DNA from: Candidatus Dojkabacteria bacterium
Lineage (GTDB): Bacteria > Patescibacteriota > Dojkabacteria > SC72
Length of the DNA stretch: 40,614 bases
NCBI GenBank assembly: GCA_050943415.1
Contig: JBMNPD010000005.1
Span: forward strand, 1-40,614
Direction: 5' to 3'
Below, in pieces: positions 2,592-39,686 of the stretch (position 1 is its first letter; every line of letters starts with the position of its first letter). The notes below the pieces were generated by a model that saw nothing but the letters and a program-made list of their open reading frames with translations, made no database searches and was not told where the DNA came from. The translations under genes were made by a program, and so were the position numbers.

Positions 2592-4169
2592 ATGTCTTCA
2601 GTATTGTATCAAAAATATCGAGCGCAGAATTTTGACGAACTGTACGGTCAGGATAATATTGTTAAGCTTCTAAAAAATGCTGTTAAGAAGAATCAGATAG
2701 CCCAGGCGTATCTTTTTGTTGGTTCTAGAGGTACTGGAAAGACATCTACAGCTAGAATATTAGCTAAGGCAATCAATTGCTTGAATTTGAAAAAAGATGG
2801 TAATCCGTGTGGAGAGTGTGAGAATTGTAAGAACATCACAGATGGTAGGTTTTTGGATCTCATAGAGGTTGATGCTGCATCAAACAGAGGTATTGACCAG
2901 ATTAGGGAGTTGAAAGAGAAGATAGAGTTTTCTCCGTCTGAGGGTAAATACAAGGTATATATCATTGACGAGGTACATATGTTAACCACAGAGGCGTTCA
3001 ATGCACTTCTTAAAACATTAGAGGAGCCTCCTGCACATGTTGTTTTCATACTGGCAACTACAGATGTACATAAGTTACCTCCAACAATTCTCTCTAGATG
3101 TCAGAGGTATGATTTTAGACTTGGTAGTGATGATGAGATTAGGAAATTGATAAAAGAGGTGTTGGAGAAGGAGAAGGTAAAGATGTCTGATGATGGTATC
3201 AACATTATTGTTCAGAATGCAAAAGGTAGCTACAGAGATGCTCTCTCTATACTTGATGTTGTGCATAGTGGTCAAGATGTTAAGGATAATGAAATAACTG
3301 TGGAAGAGATTAGGAAAGTTTTAGGACTGCCAGATTTTGACAAGGTGGTGCTTCTGCTTAAGTATCTACTCGAGGGTAACGGTGTAAAGGCTTTAGGTGT
3401 CATATCTTCTCTTGAGGAGCTTGGTGTTAATCTTCAACAATTTACGCAGTATGTTCTTGATATATTACAAAATGTTCTAACAGAGAAGATTAAAGGAAGT
3501 ATGAGTAAAGAGTACAAATTTGCAGAGCAGGTTGATCTTCGTACTATCCATAAGCTAATTAATCTTTTTCTTGAGGCAGAGAACAAGATTAGATATGCAA
3601 ATAATCAGGTATTAGTATTAGAGATGATTATTCCAGAGATGATGAAGCCAAGTGTAAATACAGATGTTGAAATGATTAACAAGGATGTTAAGAACAAGAT
3701 TAAAAAGGTAGAGAAGAAAGAAGAGGAAACTAAAGAAGAAGTTGAAGTAGAAACAGATTCTGTTTGTTGTGATATTCCACTTAATGAAATTAAGGAGAAG
3801 TGGGATTTGTTCATTACAGAAATTAAGCCGTTTAATGGTCATCTCTACGCTTTCTTGAGTGGTGCAAATGTGTTGTCTTTTGAAAAAGGAATCATTTATT
3901 TAGAAGTTCCTTTTCAATTTCACAAAGAAAGGATAGAGGTTCCAAAGAGTAGAAATGTAATCTCTCGAGTGTTCAAGAAAGTATACGGCACAGGATGTAA
4001 GGTAGATTGTAAAGTGAATTCAGCCATAAAGCCAGTAGAAAAATCAGATGCTAACTTTGTATTAAGGAATTTACCAGTTACTCCGAAAAAGGAAGAGAAA
4101 AAGGTAGATACAAATGATACACCTCAGAATTTCAACAAAAAGATAGAGGCAATATTCGAAGGAGTGTAA
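2592..4169 (+). CDS. dnaX: DNA polymerase III subunit gamma/tau
   Basis: LYQKYR, GSRGTGKT, Zn cysteines, IIDEVHML, ILSRCQ; upstream of ybaB-recR. Confidence 0.97.
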   Translation: MSSVLYQKYRAQNFDELYGQDNIVKLLKNAVKKNQIAQAYLFVGSRGTGKTSTARILAKAINCLNLKKDGNPCGECENCKNITDGRFLDLIEVDAASNRGIDQIRELKEKIEFSPSEGKYKVYIIDEVHMLTTEAFNALLKTLEEPPAHVVFILATTDVHKLPPTILSRCQRYDFRLGSDDEIRKLIKEVLEKEKVKMSDDGINIIVQNAKGSYRDALSILDVVHSGQDVKDNEITVEEIRKVLGLPDFDKVVLLLKYLLEGNGVKALGVISSLEELGVNLQQFTQYVLDILQNVLTEKIKGSMSKEYKFAEQVDLRTIHKLINLFLEAENKIRYANNQVLVLEMIIPEMMKPSVNTDVEMINKDVKNKIKKVEKKEEETKEEVEVETDSVCCDIPLNEIKEKWDLFITEIKPFNGHLYAFLSGANVLSFEKGIIYLEVPFQFHKERIEVPKSRNVISRVFKKVYGTGCKVDCKVNSAIKPVEKSDANFVLRNLPVTPKKEEKKVDTNDTPQNFNKKIEAIFEGV

Positions 4170-4216
4170 GTTTTCCTGTATAATGTACCGTAAATTTAAA
4201 TTCAATTTTTAAAAGT

Positions 4217-4517: not shown

Positions 4518-5141
4518 ATGTCAATATTACCTCCTAGTGTAGAAAAAGTAATAGAGGAGTTTGGAAGATTACCGGGTGTAGGTCCTAAGTCTGCATCTCG
4601 TATGACTTACCACTACCTTCGTTCTCCTAACAAAGATGCTTCTAAGTTAGCTAATGCTCTCATAGAGATGGAGAATACTGTTAAGAATTGTAGTAAATGT
4701 TTTAATGTAACAGACAAGGATGTATGTGAGATATGTTCTAGTCCTCTAAGAAAAAAGGACAAGATATGTGTAGTGGAAGAGCCTTTAGATGTTGTTGCTT
4801 TTGAGAATTCAGCTGTTTTTGATGGAGTATATTTTGTGCTAGGTGGTGTAATCTCTCCTGCTGAGGGAATAGGGGCAGAGGAGTTAAGATTTAAGGAATT
4901 AAGAAGTAGGGTAGATGAACTCTTGAAGGATAGTGATGTTGTTGAGGTTATTGTTGCAACCAACCCTAGTCTTGAGGGTGAGGCTACTGCAAACTACATA
5001 GTTGATCTCTTTAAGAATCTACTTAAAGAAGGTAAAATTAAAATTACTAGATTAGCAATGGGTCTGCCTACAGGTGCAGATCTAGAATATGCTGATAGAT
5101 TAACTTTAAAACGAGCTCTAGAAGGAAGGAGGGATATTTAA
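4518..5141 (+). CDS. recR: Recombination mediator RecR
   Basis: LPGVGPKSA HhH motif, C4 zinc finger, ATNPSLEGEAT, ITRLAMGLP. Confidence 0.97.
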   Translation: MSILPPSVEKVIEEFGRLPGVGPKSASRMTYHYLRSPNKDASKLANALIEMENTVKNCSKCFNVTDKDVCEICSSPLRKKDKICVVEEPLDVVAFENSAVFDGVYFVLGGVISPAEGIGAEELRFKELRSRVDELLKDSDVVEVIVATNPSLEGEATANYIVDLFKNLLKEGKIKITRLAMGLPTGADLEYADRLTLKRALEGRRDI

Positions 5142-13217: not shown

Positions 13218-13304
13218 GGAGAGATGCCTGAGCGGTCGAAAGGGACGGTCTTGAAAACCGTTGTACGGTCTTCCGTACCCAGGGTTCGAATCCCTGTCTC
13301 TCCG
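13218..13304 (+). tRNA. tRNA-Ser(TGA), CCA not encoded
   Basis: Acceptor GGAGAGA/TCTCTCC, anticodon arm ACGGT-CTTGAAA-ACCGT, long variable arm GTACGG/CCGTAC, T arm CAGGG-TTCGAAT-CCCTG. Confidence 0.97.
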
Positions 13305-28359: not shown

Positions 28360-28443
28360 GGTCGAGTGGTGGAATAGGCAGACACGCGGGACTCAAAATC
28401 CCGTGCTAGCAATAGCATGAGGGTTCGATTCCCTCCTCGACCA
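28360..28443 (+). tRNA. tRNA-Leu(CAA), CCA not encoded
   Basis: Acceptor GGTCGAG/CTCGACC plus discriminator A, anticodon arm CGGGA-CTCAAAA-TCCCG, variable arm, T arm GAGGG-TTCGATT-CCCTC; TATAAT at 28346-28351. Confidence 0.97.
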
Positions 28444-32278: not shown

Positions 32279-34816
32279 ATGTTAATCATCATTCTAATTA
32301 TATTAATAATTTCGATTCTGTTTGTTGTTTTCCTTATGATATGGGGAAGAAAAAATGTTGAGAAAGTTGAGGTATACGAAGATTTAAGAAATCCATGTGT
32401 TATGCAGGTACTTGTTCCTAGAGAGAATGATAAGTCTGCACTTGCTGCTGAGCAAATGTTTGCTTCCATACATGGTGTTTTAGAGGGTAACAAAAAGTGT
32501 CTTGATGTTGTGAGTTTGGAGATTGTGTCTATTGAGGATAGTGGTATTAAGTTTTTCATAGTAGCACCAAATCACTTAGCAAAGTTTGTAGAAGGTCAGG
32601 TATATGCTCAGTATCCTAATGCAGATATTCGTTTTGTTTCTGATTATGTGAATGAGAAGGTTGGTAGTAATGATAGTTTTGTTACAACTGGTGAGATTGA
32701 GATGGAAAAGGATTCCATATTTCCAATTAAAACATTTAGAAATTTTGAAGTAGATCCTCTTGCTGCAATAACTGGAGCTATGTCTAAATTGAATATGGGG
32801 GAACAGGTTTGGTTACAAATTATCATTCGTCCTGTGTCTAACTATTGGCAGGCTGAATCTAAAAACTACATAACAGCAATTAAGGAAGGATTAGATCCTA
32901 ACGGTATGTCCTTTGGTGCTTTGCTTGGTAAGATGGTTGGCGGTATAGGAAAGGCTTTGACGACATCTCCAGATGAAAAACCACAGAAGGAGGTTGTTAA
33001 ATTACAGCCAGGACAGGAGGAGGAGTTGAGTGAGATAGAGAATAAGACTTTGAAGGTAGGTTTTGAGTTTAAGATAAGGATAGTGACTAAAGCACAGGAT
33101 CAGTTTAGATCGGAACAAATCTTACGTGATGTGGTAGCAAGTTTTAAACAGTTTACTACAGCTCATCTTAATAACTTTATACATGCTGAACCAGAGAAGT
33201 CTGGTAAAGAGATATATGATGAGTATGTGGCAAGACATATGGAGGATGGTCAGGATATTGTAAATATTGAAGAGTTGGCATCTTTGTATCACTTGCCAAA
33301 TATCTCTGTAGAGACACCGAACATTGCTTGGAGTAGGTCTAAGAAATTAGAACCTCCTATGAATCTTCCAAAAGCGACTGATGGTGATGTTACTATATTT
33401 GGAGAGACAGATTATCGTGATGTTAAGGTTCAGTTTGGTTTGAAGAGAATGGATAGGCAGAGGCATTTCTACTTGCTTGGTAAAACTGGTACTGGTAAGT
33501 CTACACTGTTTAAAAATATGTTCATATCTGACATCTTGTCAGGAGATGGAGCTTGTTTTATTGATCCTCACGGTGATACTGTAGAAGAATTACTTCAATA
33601 TATTCCTCCTAACAGGGTAGAGGATGTTGTGTATTTTAATCCTGCTGATGTTGAGCGTCCAATCGGGTTTAATCTTCTTGAGCTAAAAGATCAATCACAG
33701 AGAGATTTAATTGCAGATGGGGTGGTAGAGGTGTTTAAGAAGCAGTTCGGAGATTCGTGGGGGCCTAGACTACAATATATTTTGACTAATGCAGTAGCTA
33801 CTACTCTAGAAGCTCAGGGTACAACTCTTTTGGCTGTTACGAGAATTTTAATAGATGCTAACTATCGTAAATTTATACTAAAACAGGTAAATGATCCCAT
33901 ACTGTATAAATTTTGGGTAGATGAATTTGCACAGATGTCACAGAACAATAAGTTACTTTCAGAGACGGTTTCTCCTATACAGAACAAGGTTGGTAGGTTC
34001 ATATCTTCTGCTGTTACAAGAAATATTGTGGGACAGGTGAAATCAACTATTGATTTGAGAGAGATTATGGATAACAAGAAGATCTTGTTGGTAAATTTAG
34101 CACAAGGTAAATTAGGTGAAGAGACAGCTTCTTTGTTAGGAGGAATGATTATTACTAGATTACAGGCTACCGCTATGGAGAGAGTAGATGTTCCAGAAGA
34201 GGAGAGAGAGGATTTCTTCTTGTATGTTGATGAGTTTCAGAATTTTGCGACTGAGTCTTTTGCAAAGATTCTTTCTGAAGCTAGAAAATACAAACTAGAT
34301 TTGACTATGACTAACCAATATATTGATCAACTTCCATTAACTGTAAGACAGGCTATATTTGGTAATGTTGGAACTTTGGGTTCTTTTGTAGTTAGTCAAT
34401 CTGATGCAAGTATATTGGAGAAAGAGTTTGCACCTATGGTTAGTGCAGGAGATTTGGTTTCTCTTGATGCGTACTCTATGTATGTAAAACTTTGTATTGA
34501 TGGAATGACATCAGTTCCGTTTAGTGCTAAATCTTTACCTATTAGGTATGAGAAGTTCGGATTAAGTGAGGAGATAATAGCTCATTCTAGGGAAAAGTAC
34601 GGCACTTCTAAGGTTGAGATAGAGGAGAAGATAGCTAAGTGGAGTAGTCAAACATATAGTGATAAGGGGAATAGGAGTAATATGAATGTTAAGCAGGAGC
34701 AAGGAAAACCTAAATCTCAAGAAAAGAAAGAAGTAATATCTAATACAGCTGAACAGCAGGAAGGTGGAGAGAAAGTTGATCAGGAAAATACTGCTAAACT
34801 AGAAAAAGACGAGTAG
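32279..34816 (+). CDS. VirD4/TraD-like (HerA/FtsK superfamily) membrane-anchored ATPase
   Basis: N-terminal TM, HFYLLGKTGTGKS, IDPHGD, LYVDEFQNF, LSEARKY, NQYIDQL. TTGCTA-17nt-TAGAAT promoter at 32242-32270. Confidence 0.85.
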   Translation: MLIIILIILIISILFVVFLMIWGRKNVEKVEVYEDLRNPCVMQVLVPRENDKSALAAEQMFASIHGVLEGNKKCLDVVSLEIVSIEDSGIKFFIVAPNHLAKFVEGQVYAQYPNADIRFVSDYVNEKVGSNDSFVTTGEIEMEKDSIFPIKTFRNFEVDPLAAITGAMSKLNMGEQVWLQIIIRPVSNYWQAESKNYITAIKEGLDPNGMSFGALLGKMVGGIGKALTTSPDEKPQKEVVKLQPGQEEELSEIENKTLKVGFEFKIRIVTKAQDQFRSEQILRDVVASFKQFTTAHLNNFIHAEPEKSGKEIYDEYVARHMEDGQDIVNIEELASLYHLPNISVETPNIAWSRSKKLEPPMNLPKATDGDVTIFGETDYRDVKVQFGLKRMDRQRHFYLLGKTGTGKSTLFKNMFISDILSGDGACFIDPHGDTVEELLQYIPPNRVEDVVYFNPADVERPIGFNLLELKDQSQRDLIADGVVEVFKKQFGDSWGPRLQYILTNAVATTLEAQGTTLLAVTRILIDANYRKFILKQVNDPILYKFWVDEFAQMSQNNKLLSETVSPIQNKVGRFISSAVTRNIVGQVKSTIDLREIMDNKKILLVNLAQGKLGEETASLLGGMIITRLQATAMERVDVPEEEREDFFLYVDEFQNFATESFAKILSEARKYKLDLTMTNQYIDQLPLTVRQAIFGNVGTLGSFVVSQSDASILEKEFAPMVSAGDLVSLDAYSMYVKLCIDGMTSVPFSAKSLPIRYEKFGLSEEIIAHSREKYGTSKVEIEEKIAKWSSQTYSDKGNRSNMNVKQEQGKPKSQEKKEVISNTAEQQEGGEKVDQENTAKLEKDE

Positions 34817-34868
34817 TGATATGTTTCTATTAGTGTTTTCATACTTTCTTGGTGTATAATCAAAACAT

Positions 34869-35648
34869 ATGTCAGGACATTCCAAGTGGGATACAATTAA
34901 ACATAAGAAAGCAATAAATGATGCTAAGAAAGGTAAGAGTTTCTCCAAGATATCAGCCTTGATATCTCATGCTGCTAAGCAAGGTGGTGGTGATCCTAAT
35001 ATGAATCCTACTTTGAGATTGTATATATCTAAAGCAAAGGAGTTGGGTTTTGCTACAGACAAGATAGAGAAAGCTATACAGAAAGGTACAGGAGAGAGTG
35101 GAGATGGAGTAATCTTTGAAGAGGTTACATATGAGGGGTTTGGTCCTTTTGGTATTCAGATAATTGTAGATACTTTGACGGATAACAAGAATAGAACGGT
35201 AGCTGATTTAAGGCAAATGTTTGATAGTATAGGAGGAAATATGGGTGATACAGGGTCTGTTTCTTGGAATTTTGAAACAAAGGGATATATTCAAATATTT
35301 TCAGGGCATATGGAGAAGTCACCTAAGTATGGTGAGGCAGATATTTATGTAGAGGATAATCCAGAAGAGGTTATGCTTTCTTTGATGGATATAGATGGTG
35401 TACTGGATATTGAAGAGATAGAGGAGAATGGTAAGAAAGGTTTTGTAATATATACCAAGTATGATAGTTTTGGATTTGTAAGAGATGAGATAGGTAAACT
35501 TGGGTATGTTATGAAGGATGCTGAGTTAATAAAGGAAGCGAATATCATAAAAGAATTATCACCAGAAGAGTATGAGAAAGCACAAGGAGCTATATCCAAA
35601 TTAGAAGAACATGATGATGTACAGAATGTTTGGAGTGATATAGAATAA
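34869..35648 (+). CDS. yebC: YebC/PmpR family protein
   Basis: MSGHSKW, DPNMNPTLR, YEGFGP, TDNKNRT, LEEHDDVQNVW. Confidence 0.96.
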   Translation: MSGHSKWDTIKHKKAINDAKKGKSFSKISALISHAAKQGGGDPNMNPTLRLYISKAKELGFATDKIEKAIQKGTGESGDGVIFEEVTYEGFGPFGIQIIVDTLTDNKNRTVADLRQMFDSIGGNMGDTGSVSWNFETKGYIQIFSGHMEKSPKYGEADIYVEDNPEEVMLSLMDIDGVLDIEEIEENGKKGFVIYTKYDSFGFVRDEIGKLGYVMKDAELIKEANIIKELSPEEYEKAQGAISKLEEHDDVQNVWSDIE

Positions 35649-35676
35649 GGACAAAAACCCTATGGCATAGTATAAT
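35648..35676 (+). promoter_or_regulatory. Cassette 1 promoter
   Basis: AGGACA-17nt-TATAAT. Confidence 0.65.
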
Positions 35677-35765
35677 ACGGTCATATCTATTATCTTAGAT
35701 ATAGGTATGTAGTTCATTCACAACAAAGGGTTGAAAGATTAGAAAATAAAACGAAAGGAGATGTT

Positions 35766-36119
35766 ATGAAAATAAAAGGAAACGTGTTGTTTGATAAAAG
35801 TTATGAGATTTTGTGTTATACAATAGTTCTTGTTTTTGCTTGTATCGTAGGGCTAAGTATAATAGATTTTGAACGATTTGTGATGGTTTTTCCGTTCCTT
35901 TGTTATATTCTAGCTATTGTTATGATTTTTGTTGGATTAGTTGGTTTTGTTACACAACAAAAACCTCTTTGTATAAAGGTATGTGCTTGGGGTATTGCTG
36001 GGGGATTAATCTGTATTGCTGGCGGATTAATTACCAGTGGTTTGGTGCTAGATTATACAATACTAGCAATTGTATTAATACTCTCACTAATCATAGCTTT
36101 TATTAGCTTGTTTTTGTAA
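35766..36119 (+). CDS. Small 4-TM membrane protein (cassette 1 cargo)
   Basis: 117 aa with four hydrophobic segments; SD AAAGGAG at 35754-35760. Confidence 0.8.
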   Translation: MKIKGNVLFDKSYEILCYTIVLVFACIVGLSIIDFERFVMVFPFLCYILAIVMIFVGLVGFVTQQKPLCIKVCAWGIAGGLICIAGGLITSGLVLDYTILAIVLILSLIIAFISLFL

Positions 36120-36138
36120 TTCAATCCTTGTTGTTACA

Positions 36139-36190
36139 AAGGGATTCTATATACATGTATTCATACAGTGTAAAGAATCCCTTCTTTTTT
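36139..36190 (+). terminator. Intrinsic terminator of cassette 1
   Basis: AAGGGATTCT/AGAATCCCTT stem followed by CTTTTTT. Confidence 0.75.
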
Positions 36191-36246
36191 ATATTCAAAT
36201 TAGAAGAGCATGATGATGTGCAGAATGTTTGGAGTGATATAGAGTA

Positions 36247-36275
36247 AAGACAAAGACCCTATAGTGTGGTATAAT
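36247..36275 (+). promoter_or_regulatory. Cassette 2 promoter
   Basis: AAGACA-17nt-TATAAT with extended TG. Confidence 0.7.
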
Positions 36276-36452
36276 ATGGTCGTATATGTACTATCTTAGT
36301 ATAGATATATAGTACGTTAACAACAAAGGATTATATATATTCTTCTTTTAATTTCACATATGCTGTATTTAGTTATTAAATATCTTTATTTAATAATTAT
36401 ATTCAGCATATGCTGAATACTTTGAAGGTCCTAATGAGAAAAGGAGAAAAAA

Positions 36453-36731
36453 ATGAATAAAAGAATAGTCATTGGTTTTAAAAAATTATTGGGAGGAAAG
36501 ACAGATGAAGCGGTGGAAAAAATCCGCATTGTAGGGAGAAGTGATGAAGTGGAAAACCGTATTAAAATCTTGGTAAGAATAGTGGTATTCAATGCTAAAA
36601 CGGGAAAAAAGGTCATGAACCTTTTTTACTTATCAGATGCAGAAATCACTAAACTAAAGGAATGGTTCGCTTCGAAGGATATGCATGTTCGTGAGGGAAT
36701 AGTTAAGGAGGTACAGATTACAATAGAATAA
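36453..36731 (+). CDS. Hypothetical 92-aa basic protein (cassette 2 cargo)
   Basis: SD AAGGAG at 36441-36446; stop codon overlaps the 3' arm. Confidence 0.75.
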   Translation: MNKRIVIGFKKLLGGKTDEAVEKIRIVGRSDEVENRIKILVRIVVFNAKTGKKVMNLFYLSDAEITKLKEWFASKDMHVREGIVKEVQITIE

Positions 36732-36747
36732 TAATCCTTTGTTAATA

Positions 36748-36788
36748 GGAGGAACTTTTTACAAAATACAGTAAGAAGTTCCTTCTTT
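36748..36788 (+). terminator. 3' hairpin of cassette 2
   Basis: GGAGGAACTTTTTAC/GTAAGAAGTTCCTTC (15 bp, 2 G-U) followed by TTT. Confidence 0.65.
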
Positions 36789-36812
36789 ACAATATATTTT
36801 CATCTAATAATA

Positions 36813-36841
36813 TTGTATCTAAACCTATAGTATGATATAAT
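36813..36841 (+). promoter_or_regulatory. Cassette 3 promoter
   Basis: TTGTAT-17nt-TATAAT with extended TG. Confidence 0.75.
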
Positions 36842-37027
36842 AAGACTAGATATCTAATATATCTTAGTATATATAGATATTACTGCTCATTAACAACAAA
36901 GGATTATATTTCTCCTTTTAATTCCACATATGCTGTATTTAGTTATTAAATATCTTTATTTAATGATTGTATTCAGCGTATGCTGGAAAAATAAAAAACC
37001 TCTGACAAAGAGAAAAAGGAGAGAGAA

Positions 37028-37357
37028 ATGGAAAACACAGTAAAAATTTTTGAGCAAATCACTCCTAATATCATTCTGGAGTGGAAGAGTGAAAGAGACA
37101 TTGTAATTCATGTCTCAAGCCCCATAATGGGTGTGAAATTGTCCGCGTATCTAGACGATACTTTGGACCAGAAGGTCTTAAACAGAATGTATGGATTAGC
37201 GGGCGTCAATTGTGTAAAAATCGATTTTTACACAATTGAAGTAAACATCGGATTGTTTTTCACTTTTGGAGCAAGAGAAGACGAAAAGTCTCTCTTGAAC
37301 AAACTGATTGACATTGCAATTGAAGCAGTGGAGATCAGCAAAAAACCTCCCTACTAG
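37028..37357 (+). CDS. Hypothetical protein, Nfu_N-like fold (cassette 3 cargo)
   Basis: SD AAGGAG; MYGLAGVNCVKIDFYTIEVNIG aligns by eye with the 38059 ORF. Confidence 0.7.
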   Translation: MENTVKIFEQITPNIILEWKSERDIVIHVSSPIMGVKLSAYLDDTLDQKVLNRMYGLAGVNCVKIDFYTIEVNIGLFFTFGAREDEKSLLNKLIDIAIEAVEISKKPPY

Positions 37358-37371
37358 ATCCTTTGTTGTTC

Positions 37372-37417
37372 GAGGGAACTTCCTTACATGTTTTTGTTTT
37401 TTGTAAGAAGTTCCCTC
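37372..37417 (+). terminator. 3' hairpin of cassette 3 (no U-tract)
   Basis: GAGGGAACTTC(C)TTACA/TGTAAGAAGTTCCCTC. Confidence 0.5.
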
Positions 37418-37521
37418 TAGAACACCTCTTTAGTATGTGTAAAAATATCTCTTTAATAGATATACAAGACTTTATCCAATTATAAATAAAAGAACGTTAA
37501 TATATACAATGTTATATAACA

Positions 37522-37550
37522 TTGAGGTATAACCTATAGAGTGATATAAT
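37522..37550 (+). promoter_or_regulatory. Cassette 4 promoter
   Basis: TTGAGG-17nt-TATAAT with extended TG. Confidence 0.75.
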
Positions 37551-37733
37551 GTGATCAGATATCTACTATCTTAGTATATAGATATTTGTTCATTAACAAC
37601 AAAGGATTATATATATTCTTCTTTTAATTCCACATATGCTGTATTTAGTTATTAAATATCTTTATTTAATGATTGTATTCAGCGTATGCTGGAAAAAATT
37701 TAAAAATATCCCTAATAGGGAAAGGAGAAAATT

Positions 37734-38042
37734 ATGTTGGTCAATCCTACTTATATCTCTTTAATCTCTCTAGAGATTAATAGAGAATCAGTCTCTGAGG
37801 GAAAGAGACGTAAAGTAAATTCGTATGGAAATAAAATTGAGAGGTTCTTTGAATTGAACTACTCAATTATTGGAGATGAGAAAAAAGAAAGATTCATTCA
37901 AGAATTGAAAAAATCTTTCGATGAATATGTTGAGGTTAAATTCCTCAGCAATAGTGAAATTGTAATTAGGAAAAAGAAGTCGGAATGGACTGAAGCAGAG
38001 CTTAGTTCTGTTTTACGTATTCTACACCAATTTGAAAGATAA
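37734..38042 (+). CDS. Hypothetical protein (cassette 4, cargo a)
   Basis: SD AAAGGAG at 37721-37727; 102 aa. Confidence 0.7.
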   Translation: MLVNPTYISLISLEINRESVSEGKRRKVNSYGNKIERFFELNYSIIGDEKKERFIQELKKSFDEYVEVKFLSNSEIVIRKKKSEWTEAELSSVLRILHQFER

Positions 38043-38058
38043 TAAAAAAGGAGAAAAA

Positions 38059-38466
38059 ATGTCAAATTTATCTGAAATTGACGAATCTCTCTTAAATAGG
38101 GTAAGAAGTAGCCCAGAAACTTTTGATGAGAGATTAGAATCAGGTATCACTATTGAATATTATCCATATGACTATGTTATCTCATTTCATGTTCCTTGGA
38201 AAATATCAGACAAAAATTTCTCATTGTGGAGAGCACAGTTCTATAAGCTTTCTACTGAGTTTACTGATGTTGATCCTGATGAGATGTGTAAACAAATAAT
38301 GTCGCAGATTTCTGAGATAGAAGGAGTAACAGATATAACTGCGAGTTATAATGAATTATCGGTATCAAAAAACCGGCTGTATAGCTGGGGTTGTAAAGAT
38401 GACAGGGAAAGTATACTTTTTAAGATTATTAAAATCTTAGAGAATTCTCGCCCTAATAGGGGGTAA
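38059..38466 (+). CDS. Hypothetical protein, Nfu_N-like fold (cassette 4, cargo b)
   Basis: Start moved to ATG 38059, after AAGGAG at 38048-38053; ISEIEGVTDITASYNELSVSKNRLYSW resembles the NifU N-terminal domain pattern. Confidence 0.72.
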   Translation: MSNLSEIDESLLNRVRSSPETFDERLESGITIEYYPYDYVISFHVPWKISDKNFSLWRAQFYKLSTEFTDVDPDEMCKQIMSQISEIEGVTDITASYNELSVSKNRLYSWGCKDDRESILFKIIKILENSRPNRG

Positions 38467-38504
38467 GGAGAATCAAAAACATAAAAATTAATCCTTTGTT
38501 GTTC

Positions 38505-38548
38505 AGAGGAACTTCTCTACATTTTTGTTTTTTGTAAGAAGTTCCTCT
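38505..38548 (+). terminator. 3' hairpin of cassette 4 (no U-tract)
   Basis: AGAGGAACTTCT/AGAAGTTCCTCT plus an inner TACA/TGTA stem. Confidence 0.5.
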
Positions 38549-38602
38549 TGACCATTCACTTGGTATATACAAAACCCCCTTTCTAGCATAGAATAATAGA
38601 AT

Positions 38603-39097
38603 ATGAGAATACTAGGATTAGACCCAGGAGTAGCTACAACAGGATGGGCAGTAGTTGATTTTGATCAACATTCATCTCCACATATAATAGATTACGGTTG
38701 TATACTAACAGAGAAGGGCTTAACACTCTCCCAAAGATTGAAAGAAATATACTGTGATATTAAAGAAATTATCAATACACATAAACCAGAATATGCAGGT
38801 ATTGAAACCCTCATATTCTGTAACAACGCTAAAACAGCAATAGCAGTAGGAGAGGCTAGGGGAGTTCTTCTTCTTGCATTAGAAGAAGAAAACATTCCCA
38901 TTCGAGAATTCACTCCACTACAAGTAAAAAACTCCATAGCAGGATATGGAAAAGCAGGTAAAAAACAAGTCCAAGAAAATGTAAAACTACTCTACGGATT
39001 AGATGAAATACCAAAACCTGATGATGCAGCAGATGCACTAGCCATAGCTATGGCTGCAGAGGTGGTTATTTCTAGAGAACAAATAAATCCTGTATAA
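38603..39097 (+). CDS. ruvC: Holliday junction resolvase RuvC
   Basis: ILGLDPG, GEARGV, TPLQVK, DDAADALA. Confidence 0.97.
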   Translation: MRILGLDPGVATTGWAVVDFDQHSSPHIIDYGCILTEKGLTLSQRLKEIYCDIKEIINTHKPEYAGIETLIFCNNAKTAIAVGEARGVLLLALEEENIPIREFTPLQVKNSIAGYGKAGKKQVQENVKLLYGLDEIPKPDDAADALAIAMAAEVVISREQINPV

Positions 39098-39104
39098 TAT
39101 ACAT

Positions 39105-39686
39105 ATGATTACATACATAACTGGAAAAATTCTAAAAACAAACATAGCTAAAGATTCATATGTAGATCTAATAACAACATCAGGCGTAGGATACAGAGTA
39201 AACATTCCCAATTCATACATATGTCCAGAATCAGGAACAGAATACTCTCTGTATACATATTTACATGTTCGAGAAGACTCTCAAACCTTGTACGGATTTG
39301 AAAAAGAAGACGAAAGAGACTTCTTCATTGAACTAATATCAGTATCAGGAGTGGGGCCTAAAATTGCTTTAGCTGTACTTTCGAATTTCTCTAGAAGAGA
39401 GTTAGAAGAACTCATTAACGATGGAGATGCTAGAGCATTAAGTAAAGTACCAGGTTTAGGATTAAAGAAAGCACAGAAGATCATACTAGAGTTAAGAGGC
39501 AAGATAGATCTAAATATTACTGATAGAAAGGGAGGTTCCATAATAAAGGAATTAAAAGATGCTCTAAAGACTCTTGGTTTTGTTGGTGATTCATTGAAAG
39601 AGAAAGTTACTTTAGCTGAAAATATCCTAGAGGTTAATGATGATATTCAAATAGAGGATTTAATAAAGAGAGTATTAAGTGAATAA
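39105..39686 (+). CDS. ruvA: Holliday junction branch migration protein RuvA
   Basis: GVGYRV, HVREDSQTLYGF, VSGVGPKIA, VPGLGLKKA. Confidence 0.96.
   Translation: MITYITGKILKTNIAKDSYVDLITTSGVGYRVNIPNSYICPESGTEYSLYTYLHVREDSQTLYGFEKEDERDFFIELISVSGVGPKIALAVLSNFSRRELEELINDGDARALSKVPGLGLKKAQKIILELRGKIDLNITDRKGGSIIKELKDALKTLGFVGDSLKEKVTLAENILEVNDDIQIEDLIKRVLSE

What the first reader, a model, noticed from the sequence alone, without database searches (positions are those of the whole stretch)
35648..38548. Array of four standardised expression cassettes (conserved RNA scaffold, exchangeable ORFs) between yebC and ruvC
Seen: four tandem units share an ordered non-coding frame while carrying different ORFs. 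The frame is -35/17 nt/TATAAT with conserved CCTAT(A/G)G, a hairpin with TATCTTAG, an ACAACAAAGG arm, an AAGGAG SD, the ORF(s), a complementary ATCCTT(T)GTT arm and a long 3' hairpin. In units 1-3 the stop codon touches the 3' arm. Established: yebC-ruvC-ruvA-ruvB is a commonly contiguous cluster, so the array interrupts it; integron cassettes are usually promoterless and use attC sites, which do not match this layout. Inference: this may be an undescribed gene-cassette system in which a fixed transcript chassis captures or exchanges small genes. It could be moved in trans (no integrase, RT or transposase nearby) or be a family of specially handled mRNAs.
Basis: partly seen in the sequence, partly recalled or inferred. 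Interest (0 to 1): 0.92.

Follow-up and report, generated by a model that had tools for sequence, protein, structure and literature searches.

The report
Conserved mRNA chassis with variable genes
A tiny uncultured bacterium carries many copies of one elaborate non-coding frame (promoter, hairpins, a 5'-3' closing helix, terminator-like hairpin) wrapped around unrelated, fast-changing small genes, which looks like a standard expression chassis for its accessory genes.

Summary
Window 35649-38549 holds four co-oriented transcription units between yebC and ruvC. They share an ordered non-coding frame but carry different ORFs.

The frame is not local. The same genome has two more canonical copies and two variant ones. 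The 5' frame model hits 14 of 23 genomes of the genus and 20 of 100 of the family. Titled relatives are Candidatus Dojkabacteria (CPR).

Cassette numbers in the three gaps ATPase-yebC-ruvC-ruvA vary from 0/0/0 to 2/4/3 between species. In 33 of 33 analysed cassettes the 5' arm is complementary to a 3' arm lying at the last stop codon, and at least 10 different arm sequences co-vary. The leader hairpin shows strong covariation and a sense-strand bias, so it acts as RNA.

Frames are as conserved as housekeeping genes, while cargo sits at or near random similarity. No Rfam, integron, transposon or phage match was found.

Best reading: a lineage-specific structured-mRNA chassis for stability or translation control in an RNase Y/J organism. 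Its repeats also serve as homology for duplication and shuffling, as PeSLs do in T4-like phages. Active capture "in trans" is not shown. No read or RNA data could be examined.

The parts
35591..35648 (+). 3' end of yebC (stop 35646-35648). This is the original copy of the segment duplicated at 36190-36247.
   Evidence: ORF 34869-35648 with Pfam TACO1/YebC domains. Repeat D3 35591-35686 vs 36190-36285, 88%.
35649..36190 (+). Unit 1. Promoter-like CCTATGG 35659-35665 and TATAAT 35671-35676. 5' hairpin 35683-35708. 5' arm 35719-35735. SD 35755-35761. ORF 35766-36119 (117 aa, 4 TM-like segments). 3' arm 36120-36135. 3' hairpin 36139-36183 with T-tract. No leader hairpin.
36190..36247 (+). Duplicated yebC tail (encodes ...KLEEHDDVQNVWSDIE*). 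It forms the junction between unit 1 and unit 2.
   Evidence: By my reading of the two printed strings, the 3 differences inside the coding part are synonymous.
36248..36790 (+). Unit 2. CCTATAG 36258, TATAAT 36270-36275. 5' hairpin around the loop at 36292-36299. 5' arm 36319-36333. Leader hairpin 36357-36412. SD 36441-36447. ORF 36453-36731 (92 aa). 3' arm 36731-36743. 3' hairpin about 36747-36786.
36814..37425 (+). Unit 3. CCTATAG 36824, TATAAT 36836-36841. 5' hairpin around 36860-36867. 5' arm 36892-36906. Pyrimidine tract (candidate anti-SD) about 36909-36919. Leader hairpin 36927-36982. SD 37016-37022. ORF 37028-37357 (109 aa). 3' arm 37358-37370. 3' hairpin about 37374-37419.
   Evidence: In the fold of the whole predicted mRNA, both the MFE and the centroid contain the 5' hairpin, a 14-bp arm helix, the leader hairpin and the 3' hairpin.
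37523..38549 (+). Unit 4. CCTATAG 37533, TATAAT 37545-37550. 5' hairpin around 37567-37574. 5' arm 37595-37609. Leader hairpin 37633-37688. Pre-SD mini-hairpin 37710-37720. SD 37722-37728. ORF 4a 37734-38042 (102 aa). ORF 4b 38059-38466 (135 aa, Nfu_N-like C-terminal module). Vestigial pre-SD hairpin plus SD 38451-38471. 3' arm 38489-38503. 3' hairpin about 38507-38549.
38603..39097 (+). ruvC, the right boundary of the array. ruvA follows at 39105 with no cassette between them.

Best explanation
Each unit is a self-contained transcription unit built on one conserved 'chassis'.

Chassis order:
- A cassette-specific promoter (CCYATAG, 5 nt, TATAAT, mostly with an extended -10).
- A hairpin that starts at about the first transcribed bases.
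- A conserved single-stranded linker (YTGYTCWTTAA).
- A 5' arm.
- A pyrimidine tract.
- A long leader hairpin of about 21-35 bp.
- A mini-hairpin next to a strong SD.
- One to three small ORFs.
- A 3' arm at the last stop codon, complementary to the 5' arm.
- A stable 3' hairpin.

Shown: the anatomy, its spread through a genus and family of Candidatus Dojkabacteria, covariation of the arms and of the leader hairpin, and the mosaic of conserved frame and unrelated or fast-evolving cargo.

Inferred mechanism, part 1 (RNA). The frame works in the mRNA. The 5'-terminal hairpin, the 10-18 bp 5'/3'-UTR closing helix and the 3' hairpin tie both ends of the message together. They would protect it from a Bacillus-type decay machinery: RNase Y, J and III are present and RNase E/G was not found. 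The leader, which in predicted folds pairs the SD region with the upstream pyrimidine tract, gives all cassettes a common translational or processing control. A ribosome terminating at the stop would open the closing helix, coupling stability to translation.

Inferred mechanism, part 2 (DNA). The roughly 200 nt and 70 nt conserved frames are portable homology. Cassettes are duplicated, lost, converted and reshuffled by ordinary homologous or illegitimate recombination in intergenic gaps next to housekeeping genes, as PeSLs are in T4-like phages.

The cargo is a pool of ORFan accessory proteins of unknown function. About 30% have TM-like segments, and some share an Nfu_N-like module.
For: Spread:
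- The same genome has full copies between an S1-domain gene and a Clp gene (C2) and between tsf and frr (C30). Variants lie upstream of rpoB (C11) and on C23.
- CCYATRG-N4-7-TAKAAT occurs 6 times in 800 kb, and all 6 are at cassettes.
- Model R1 of the 5' frame hits 14 of 23 genomes of the genus and 20 of 100 of the family, in 5 of 21 genera.

Occupancy of the gaps ATPase>yebC / yebC>ruvC / ruvC>ruvA: G000 0/4/0, G077 2/4/3, G076 1/0/0, G082 2/0/0, G086 1/1/0, and G074, G071 and G080 each 0/1/0.

Arms:
- 33 of 33 analysed cassettes have a 3' arm with 8-18 Watson-Crick pairs to their own 5' arm, lying -16 to +40 nt from the end of the last stop codon.
- At least 10 different arm sequences each pair with their own partner.
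- Own-partner score averages 23.8 against 16.6 for other cassettes' partners.
- Orthologous cassettes in G061 and G065 differ by a compensatory change.

Leader:
- 21 pairs, with 96.1% of cells paired against 83.6% in shuffles (0 of 500 shuffles reach it) and 35-50% when slid.
- 10 pairs change on both sides, and G-U is the commonest pair at 3 positions.
- The sense strand folds better than the antisense strand in 27 of 27 leaders (mean -33.1 vs -24.5 kcal/mol).

5' hairpin: 33 of 33 frames have at least 6 pairs, starting a median of 5 nt after the -10 hexamer, with mean z of -2.9.

Whole unit-3 mRNA fold: the closing helix appears in both MFE and centroid, z=-13.

Mosaic identity:
- Unit 3 vs unit 4: arm 95.5%, leader 92.3%, 3' frame 83%, cargo at the random baseline.
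- G061 vs G065: 5' UTR 85%, 3' frame 91%, yebC 79.5%, cargo 58.6%.

Recombination scars: the yebC-tail duplication, a vestigial SD, and a solo promoter plus hairpin in G085.

RNases: III, Y and J were found and E/G was not.
Against: - The promoters, transcript ends, RNA pairing and any stabilising effect are therefore all predictions.
- The arms themselves do not distinguish RNA from DNA: 413 Watson-Crick pairs, 8 G-T and 11 A-C oppositions under symmetric scoring.
- The 3' hairpins show no strand bias (sense more stable in 16 of 33). Only 14 of 33 have a T-rich tail, so many are poor intrinsic terminators.
- SD/anti-SD pairing appears in 23 of 27 predicted folds but is not better than composition-matched shuffles (mean z -0.8; 5 of 27 at p<=0.05).
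- The generic promoter scan is not enriched over shuffles.
- Recombination between frames is inferred from patterns. No circles, empty or filled strain pairs, or breakpoints within frames were observed. The metagenome scan found no relative closer than 78% YebC identity.
- Some cargo is distantly related: an Nfu_N-like module in about 7 of 44 and tandem paralogues at 33% identity. Part of the cargo diversity may therefore be divergence in place rather than exchange.
Confidence: 0.6

Rival explanations
1. Paralogous gene family, or regulon, evolving in place. The cassettes arose by tandem and dispersed duplication. The UTR frames are kept by purifying selection and gene conversion, while the ORFs diverge extremely fast. 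No cargo exchange or capture takes place.
For: - Orthologous cassettes keep their frames while the cargo drops to 40% amino-acid identity.
- Adjacent G077 cassettes carry 33%-identical paralogues.
- An Nfu_N-like module links unit 3, unit 4b and two other cargo families.
- The ftsK-rpoB cassette is syntenic in 4 genomes.
- dN/dS is about 0.9 and 0.7 in two of three pairs.
Against: - 44 cargo ORFs fall into 37 BLAST clusters, mixing multi-TM and soluble proteins of 56-374 aa.
- ORF number per chassis varies from 1 to 3. One chassis holds 3 ORFs in G077 and only the last of them in G076.
- A vestigial SD follows unit 4b.
- Near-identical leaders flank cargo at random similarity.
Confidence: 0.22
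2. A true mobile cassette system. The complementary arms, or the hairpins, are recombination sites used in trans by a site-specific recombinase or a Y1 (HUH) transposase acting on single-stranded hairpins.
For: - Occupancy of three neighbouring gaps is variable.
- Inverted arms bracket the cargo.
- The genome encodes 2 tyrosine recombinases and 3 Y1_Tnp homologues.
Against: - Arm sequences differ between cassettes of one genome yet always match their own partner, which is not expected of a protein recognition site.
- The most conserved parts (promoter, 5' hairpin, linker, 3' hairpin) lie outside the arms.
- No target-site duplication was seen at filled versus empty gaps.
- No recombinase hit lies on the window's contig.
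- The Y1_Tnp genes are flanked by different palindromes.
- No resolvase, RT, rve, DDE_Tnp_1 or TnpB hit was found.
Confidence: 0.08
3. Type I toxin-antitoxin-like modules. The 5'-3' long-distance interaction locks the mRNA of a toxic small membrane protein until 3' processing.
For: - There is a 5'-3' closing helix, and the SD is paired in predicted folds.
- 13 of 44 cargo proteins have TM-like segments, including unit 1.
- Long-distance 5'-3' pairing is described for hok and aapA toxin mRNAs (PMC6733600, passages read).
Against: - Most cargo is soluble and 90-374 aa long, and several cassettes are polycistronic.
- The 3' arm pairs with the 5' arm about 100-130 nt upstream of the SD, not with the SD.
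- I did not search for an antisense RNA or promoter.
- PADLOC gave only weak single hits.
Confidence: 0.06
4. Chromosomal integron cassettes or a phage-derived moron array.
For: Tandem array of small ORFan genes with repeated boundary elements.
Against: - Each cassette has its own promoter-like element.
- No integrase lies next to the array.
- The boundary repeats are a promoter plus hairpins, not attC-like sites.
- The frame pattern found only 2 chance-like matches in viral contigs.
- Flanks are housekeeping genes.
Confidence: 0.02

Closest known systems
PeSLs (promoter-early stem-loops) of T4-like phages: mobile regulatory cassettes (PMC2839356, abstract and section 13 read; PMC4122927, abstract read)
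   Same: - Repeated composite promoter plus stem-loop plus SD motifs sit between ORFan genes in hyperplastic regions.
- Conserved regulatory repeats flank unrelated genes.
- Indels and replacements are attributed to recombination between the repeats.
   Different: - The present case is in a cellular (CPR) chromosome between housekeeping genes, not a phage.
- The frame is much larger (about 200 nt 5' and 70 nt 3').
- It contains a 5'/3' closing helix and a covarying leader hairpin that PeSLs lack.
- Mini-circles and promoter or terminator activity were demonstrated for PeSLs and are untested here.
B. subtilis hbs mRNA: 14-bp 5'/3'-UTR interaction modulating RNase Y cleavage, with protection from RNase J1 (PMC5737220, abstract read)
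   Same: - A long-range 5'-UTR/3'-UTR helix of similar length (10-18 bp here).
- A structured 5' UTR and a strong SD.
- The organism has RNase Y and J and lacks RNase E/G.
   Different: - hbs is one gene; here a whole family of cassettes shares the design.
- The position of the 3' arm at the stop codon, the 5'-terminal hairpin and the long leader hairpin are specific to this family.
- No experimental data exist here.
Type I toxin mRNAs with a 5'-3' long-distance interaction, e.g. hok/Sok and aapA/IsoA (PMC6733600, passages read)
   Same: The ends of the mRNA pair. The default fold is predicted to occlude the SD. Some cargo is small membrane protein.
   Different: In those systems the 3' end itself sequesters the SD and an antisense RNA is part of the module. 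Here the 3' arm pairs with a distant 5' arm, most cargo is not toxin-like, and no antisense RNA is known.
Integron gene cassettes (general knowledge; PMC8876359 seen only in a search listing)
   Same: Arrays of small, diverse, often ORFan genes separated by repeated structured boundary elements.
   Different: Integron cassettes are generally promoterless, end in attC sites and depend on an adjacent IntI integrase. Here every cassette has its own promoter-like element and no integrase is adjacent.
REP/RAYT elements and MITEs (general knowledge; PMC3184786 seen only in a search listing)
   Same: Repeated intergenic hairpins and inverted repeats. The genome does encode Y1 transposase homologues.
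   Different: Those repeats are short and non-coding, and they have conserved ends. The REP-like palindromes next to this genome's Y1_Tnp genes are different sequences.

Membership tests
Integron gene cassette | Adjacent IntI-type tyrosine integrase with attI | tested here: not met
   The only PF00589 hits in the genome are on contigs C9 and C31, not on the window's contig C10.
Integron gene cassette | Promoterless cassette ending in an attC site | tested here: not met
   Each unit starts with CCYATRG-N5-TATAAT, and three of the four score 10/12 in the promoter scan. The boundary repeats are a promoter plus hairpins. attC was judged by inspection only; no attC model was run.
PeSL-type regulatory cassette | Repeated composite sigma-70-like promoter plus stable stem-loop plus SD, lying between ORFan genes | tested here: met
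   Cargo is without family in Pfam for 40 of 44 ORFs.
PeSL-type regulatory cassette | Located in hyperplastic regions of T4-like phage genomes | tested here: not met
   Flanks are yebC, ruvC, tsf, frr, rpoB and similar genes. There were no real matches in viral contigs.
PeSL-type regulatory cassette | Recombination between repeats causing indels, replacements and mini-circles | tested here: inconclusive
   Mosaic identity, variable occupancy and a duplicated yebC tail fit this.
hbs-type 5'/3'-UTR interaction | Long-range base pairing between the 5' and 3' UTR of one mRNA | tested here: met
   Met by prediction and covariation only: 33 of 33 cassettes, at least 10 co-varying arm variants, and the helix in the MFE and centroid of the unit-3 mRNA.
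hbs-type 5'/3'-UTR interaction | Modulates RNase Y cleavage and RNase J decay | not testable with these tools
   RNase Y and J genes are present and RNase E/G was not found. No RNA data.
Type I toxin-antitoxin | Small hydrophobic toxin (typically under 60 aa) | tested here: not met
   Cargo is 56-374 aa, and 31 of 44 lack any TM-like segment.
Type I toxin-antitoxin | 3' end sequesters the SD; cis or trans antisense RNA antitoxin | tested here: not met
   The 3' arm pairs with the 5' arm upstream of the leader, not with the SD. I did not search for an antisense RNA.
TIR transposon / MITE | Conserved terminal inverted repeats, target-site duplication, cognate transposase | tested here: not met
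   The arms vary between copies. No target-site duplication was seen at filled versus empty gaps, by inspection. There were no rve, DDE_Tnp_1 or TnpB hits.
Any Rfam family | Match at gathering score | tested here: not met
   Only two tRNAs in the window at gathering score. The E-value scan of 35600-38620 gave two hits at E 0.52 and 0.99.

The most novel reading that the evidence does not exclude
This would be a cellular counterpart of the phage PeSL system, but richer. A portable, self-insulating transcription-unit chassis would form the dedicated platform on which an ultra-small symbiont keeps, trials and turns over its ORFan accessory genes. Any ORF placed between SD and 3' arm would at once be transcribed from a strong private promoter. 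Its message would be closed 5'-to-3' and placed under one shared post-transcriptional switch, the covarying leader and linker read by a single trans factor or RNase. The whole accessory gene pool would then be controlled as one unit, and the conserved frames would be the recombination handles that move cargo.
Probability: 0.2. Interest if true: 0.85.

Novelty: new variant of a known kind. Interest (0 to 1): 0.72.

Why it matters
CPR/Patescibacteria have tiny genomes, are almost entirely uncultured, and almost nothing is known about their gene regulation or about how they renew their accessory genes.

This finding offers three things:
Rfam has no match, and my literature searches found no description.
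- A natural family-wide use of 5'/3'-UTR pairing, which is otherwise known from single genes.
- A chromosomal analogue of phage promoter/stem-loop shuffling cassettes, marking the fastest-evolving genes of the lineage.

It makes several things directly testable in metatranscriptomes and reporters: which signals CPR use for strong expression, how their mRNAs are stabilised with an RNase Y/J machinery, and where new genes enter these genomes. The chassis could also serve as an expression tool for these organisms.

Tried and rejected
Known RNA families. The Rfam gathering scan of the window and the E-value scan of the array found nothing relevant.

Integron, transposon or retroelement.
- Family searches in the own genome found tyrosine recombinases only on other contigs.
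- No resolvase, RT, rve, DDE_Tnp_1 or TnpB was found.
- Three Y1_Tnp genes are flanked by unrelated palindromes.

Phage origin. A frame pattern scan of viral contigs gave 2 chance-like matches.

Cargo function.
- Pfam on 7 and then on 44 cargo ORFs gave only Nfu_N, in 4 of 44.
- PADLOC gave only weak single hits.
- The unit-3 cargo has no homologue in 99 other genomes of the family.
- Unit 4b finds only itself in the 5.8-billion-protein index, which is limited by its word filter.
- ESM Atlas models of the unit-3 and unit-2 cargo are low-confidence (pLDDT 0.55 and 0.47) and uninformative.
- No structure prediction, complex prediction or representative-profile search was run.

RNA versus DNA for the arms. 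Symmetric scoring gave no G-U excess.

SD/anti-SD pairing. It is predicted but not better than shuffles.

Strain-level comparison. The metagenome scan with YebC found no close strain; the best hit was 78% identical. More distant loci often have other ORFs in the yebC-ruvC gap without a recognisable frame.

Literature. These searches found no description of such cassettes:
- 'Dojkabacteria'
- 'candidate phyla radiation / gene cassette / intergenic / inverted repeat'
- 'Patescibacteria / untranslated region / promoter / structured RNA'

Supplementary files were not consulted.

Rows dropped before counts.
- Arm analysis used 33 of the 40 nhmmer frames.
  - L036:4973 is identical to L035.
  - For L038:8065, L042:4976 and L044:4380 I did not resolve the cargo and 3' end. 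In one search the best matches for the first two were not beside a terminal hairpin, and L044 had no anchor.
  - L050:4522 is near the contig end.
  - L057:5593 has a run of N.
  - L058:678 is a solo remnant.
- Leader strand test used 27 of 34 UTRs. The 7 with leaders shorter than 80 nt were left out.
- Covariation alignment A5 used 21 of those 27. I left out L035 (near-duplicate), L047 and L051 (a different hairpin type), and L050, L054 and L059 (atypical). This favours a clean alignment.

Full report
**1. What is in the window.**

Reading 34800-39400 and listing ORFs shows yebC (34869-35648) and ruvC (38603-39097) separated by 2.95 kb. Pfam confirms TACO1/YebC, RuvC and RuvA, and shows that the upstream 845-aa protein is a TrwB/HerA-like ATPase.

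The interval holds four co-oriented units. Each has these elements, in order:
- CCYATRG, 5 nt, then TATAAT
- a hairpin whose loop carries TATCTTAG
- the linker TTCATT(A/C)
- the arm ACAACAAAGG(A/G)TT
- in units 2-4, a long hairpin CATATGCTG...CAGC(A/G)TATG
- a small hairpin next to AAGGAGA
- the ORF or ORFs
- the complementary arm
- a 3' hairpin whose 3' strand is preceded by GTAA

The ORFs are 117 aa (4 TM-like segments), 92 aa, 109 aa, and 102 plus 135 aa.

- The junction of units 1 and 2 contains a second copy of the last ~57 nt of yebC (36190-36247), inside a 96-nt repeat at 88% identity. By my reading of the two strings, its three coding differences are synonymous.
- A vestigial pre-SD hairpin plus SD overlaps the stop of the last ORF (38451-38471).

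**2. It is a dispersed family.**

The assembly is 800 kb in 32 contigs and 99% complete.
- BLASTN of the unit-4 5' frame finds units 2 and 3 (E about 1e-57 to 1e-60).
- It also finds full copies on C2 and C30 (E 9e-37 and 6e-29).
- By Pfam, these sit between an S1-domain gene and a Clp gene, and between EF-Ts and RRF.
- A variant lies between ftsK and rpoB on C11, and another variant-looking frame is on C23.
- The promoter word CCYATRG-N4-7-TAKAAT occurs 6 times in the genome, always at a cassette.

A sequence-only covariance model of the first 80 nt (R1) gives:
- hits in 14 of 23 genomes of the genus at E<=1e-3, 43 matches in all
- hits in 20 of 100 genomes of the family at E<=1e-4, in 5 of 21 genera

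A pattern scan of species-representative genomes returned records titled Candidatus Dojkabacteria that carry real cassettes, plus single chance matches in unrelated taxa.

**3. Occupancy is variable.**

With the window's ATPase, YebC, RuvC and RuvA as probes and by reading the junctions, the cassette numbers are:

| Genome | ATPase>yebC | yebC>ruvC | ruvC>ruvA |
|---|---|---|---|
| G000 (this window) | 0 | 4 | 0 |
| G077 | 2 | 4 | 3 |
| G076 | 1 | 0 | 0 |
| G082 | 2 | 0 | 0 |
| G086 | 1 | 1 | 0 |
| G074 | 0 | 1 | 0 |
| G071 | 0 | 1 | 0 |
| G080 | 0 | 1 | 0 |

- In G076, yebC and ruvC are only 3 nt apart.
- G082 has an unrelated palindrome-flanked insert in the yebC>ruvC gap.
- G086 is the nearest relative (ATPase 91% amino-acid identity), and its cargo differs from the window's.
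- G088 and G092 are partly unresolved.
- G085 keeps a solo promoter plus 5' hairpin fused to the yebC upstream region.
- All frames run in the direction of the flanking genes.
- I saw no target-site duplications. The cassettes sit between the upstream stop codon and the downstream gene's own promoter region.

Among 15 metagenome loci with YebC 61-78% identical:
- two have yebC and ruvC 8-14 nt apart
- three carry recognisable frames
- several carry other ORFs without a frame

So this gap is a general hot spot. In contrast, the ftsK-rpoB cassette is syntenic in 4 genomes.

**4. The arms pair.**

I analysed 33 cassettes; 7 of the 40 nhmmer frames were dropped, as listed under Tried and rejected. 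For each, I searched the 75 nt around the last stop codon with the cassette's own 5' arm, scoring G-T and A-C oppositions alike.
- All 33 have 8-18 Watson-Crick pairs, starting -16 to +40 nt from the end of the stop codon.
- Own-partner scores average 23.8, against 16.6 for other cassettes' partners.
- At least 10 distinct arm sequences each match their own partner. Examples of 5' arms are AACAAAGGATTAT, ACAACAAGGGGTT, ATTAAGTATT, ATTAAGGTCTATA, AAAATGGTTAG, ATTTCTTATTAAT and GAATTACAACTT.
- Orthologous cassettes in G061 and G065 (another genus) differ by a compensatory change in both arms.
- Totals are 413 Watson-Crick, 8 G-T and 11 A-C. This test alone therefore cannot say whether the pairing matters in RNA or DNA.

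Folding the whole predicted unit-3 mRNA (577 nt) puts the following into both the MFE and the centroid (z=-13.2 against 100 shuffles):
- the 5' hairpin
- a 14-bp arm helix
- a helix between the pyrimidine tract and the SD
- the leader hairpin
- the 3' hairpin

**5. The leader and the 5' hairpin behave as RNA.**

Leader:
- 27 of 34 5' UTRs have a long leader, and RNAfold gives -18 to -46 kcal/mol hairpins.
- The sense strand is more stable than its reverse complement in 27 of 27 (mean -33.1 vs -24.5 kcal/mol; 126 vs 51 G-U pairs).
- These copies are related, and the strand is G+T-rich, so the test overstates independence.
- An alignment of 21 leaders of three sequence types gives a 21-pair consensus with 10 pairs changed on both sides.
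- 96.1% of cells are paired, against 83.6% in shuffles (0 of 500 reach it) and 35-50% for slid partners. The covariation score is 0.45 against 0.21. G-U is the commonest pair at three positions.

5' hairpin:
- It is predicted in 33 of 33 frames with at least 6 pairs.
- It starts a median of 5 nt after the -10 hexamer, with mean z of -2.9.
- Its stem sequences differ between variants while staying complementary.

SD pairing:
- The SD core is paired to the pyrimidine tract in 23 of 27 predicted folds.
- This is no better than composition-matched shuffles (mean z -0.8).
- I treat it as a hypothesis.

3' hairpins:
- They are stable (mean -17.5 kcal/mol).
- Only 14 of 33 have a T-rich tail, and they show no strand bias.

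**6. Conserved frame, volatile cargo.**

- Unit 3 vs unit 4: arm 95.5%, leader 92.3%, 3' frame 83.1%, promoter part 74.7%. Cargo is 37%, against a shuffled baseline of 51% for equal-length sequences.
- Orthologous cassettes in G061 and G065: 5' UTR 85.1% and 3' frame 90.7% identical, against 79.5% for yebC, 82.4% for the ATPase 3' end and 58.6% for the cargo CDS (40% amino-acid identity).
- 44 cargo ORFs fall into 37 BLASTP clusters.
- 13 of 44 have TM-like segments.
- Pfam recognises only Nfu_N, in 4 of 44. The homologue of unit 4b scores 32.2 bits, above the cut-off of 27.
- Small profile searches link unit 4b, unit 3 and one other family through that C-terminal module.
- Rough dN/dS is 0.24, 0.94 and 0.70 in three pairs.
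- One chassis carries three ORFs in G077 and only the last of them in G076.

**7. What it is not.**

- There is no Rfam match.
- The tyrosine recombinases lie on other contigs.
- No resolvase, RT, rve, DDE_Tnp_1 or TnpB was found.
- The three Y1_Tnp homologues have different flanking palindromes.
- There are no real matches in viral contigs.

**8. How it most likely works.**

The genome encodes RNase III, RNase Y and RNase J, and no RNase E/G was found. This is the decay machinery of the organism in which a 14-bp 5'/3'-UTR interaction modulates RNase Y cleavage of hbs mRNA, and in which 5' structures and an SD-bound ribosome block RNase J1 (PMC5737220, abstract).

I therefore read the chassis as an mRNA design:
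- The ends are hairpinned and tied together.
- The closing helix abuts the stop codon, so terminating ribosomes would open it.
- A shared leader gives common control.

The conserved frames would also be natural substrates for homologous recombination. That would explain the arrays, the gain and loss, the yebC-tail duplication (as expected from a single crossover of a circularised fragment, or from unequal exchange) and the solo remnants. It resembles what was shown for PeSLs in T4-like phages (PMC2839356, PMC4122927).

Both halves are inference.

**9. Verdict.**

The 'specially handled mRNA family' reading is well supported by covariation. The 'exchangeable ORFs' reading is supported as a pattern. 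'Capture by a dedicated mobile machinery' is not supported.

I file it as a new variant of known kinds: regulatory promoter/stem-loop cassettes combined with 5'/3'-UTR pairing. It is undescribed in Rfam and in the literature I could search.

Noticed in passing
G000 contigs C19:27054-27395(+), C19:44113-44406(-), C25:227-565(-): An 800-kb genome carries three Y1_Tnp (IS200/IS605 or RAYT-like) homologues. At least two are flanked by GGTTTAACCTAGGTTAGACC-type palindromes, suggesting a REP/RAYT-like system in a CPR bacterium.
   Followed up: partly
L038 about 4890-5120 (G082, yebC-ruvC gap); L041 about 3940-4190 (G071, ATPase-yebC gap): Short inserts of about 200 nt are bounded by CAGACCTGGTCTG / GGTCAGGCCTAGGTCAGGCC-type palindromes. 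They look like MITE- or REP-like elements using the same intergenic gaps as the cassettes.
   Followed up: no
G000:C18:2367 (+): A tRNA gene is preceded by ATATAGTATGGTATAAT, nearly the cassette promoter word without the CC. The cassette promoter may therefore be a variant of the organism's strong stable-RNA promoter.
   Followed up: no
G000:C8:8756-9070: The RNase J C-terminal domain match is reported with one in-frame TAG inside the match (open frame 564 aa). I did not check whether this is a gene boundary, an error or a recoding.
   Followed up: no
window 13218-13304 and 28360-28443: Two tRNA genes are the only Rfam matches in the window at gathering score.
   Followed up: no
all frames, e.g. 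window 37586-37596: The single-stranded linker between the 5' hairpin and the 5' arm (YTGYTCWTTAA) is among the most conserved parts of the frame across all variants, even where the arms are entirely different. It is a candidate protein- or RNase-recognition site.
   Followed up: no
L088, L092, L097 (metagenome loci), yebC-ruvC gap: More distant relatives carry 2-3 other small ORFs in the same gap. A small hairpin follows yebC, but there is no recognisable chassis. The last ORFs appear related to each other by their similar C-terminal regions.
   Followed up: no
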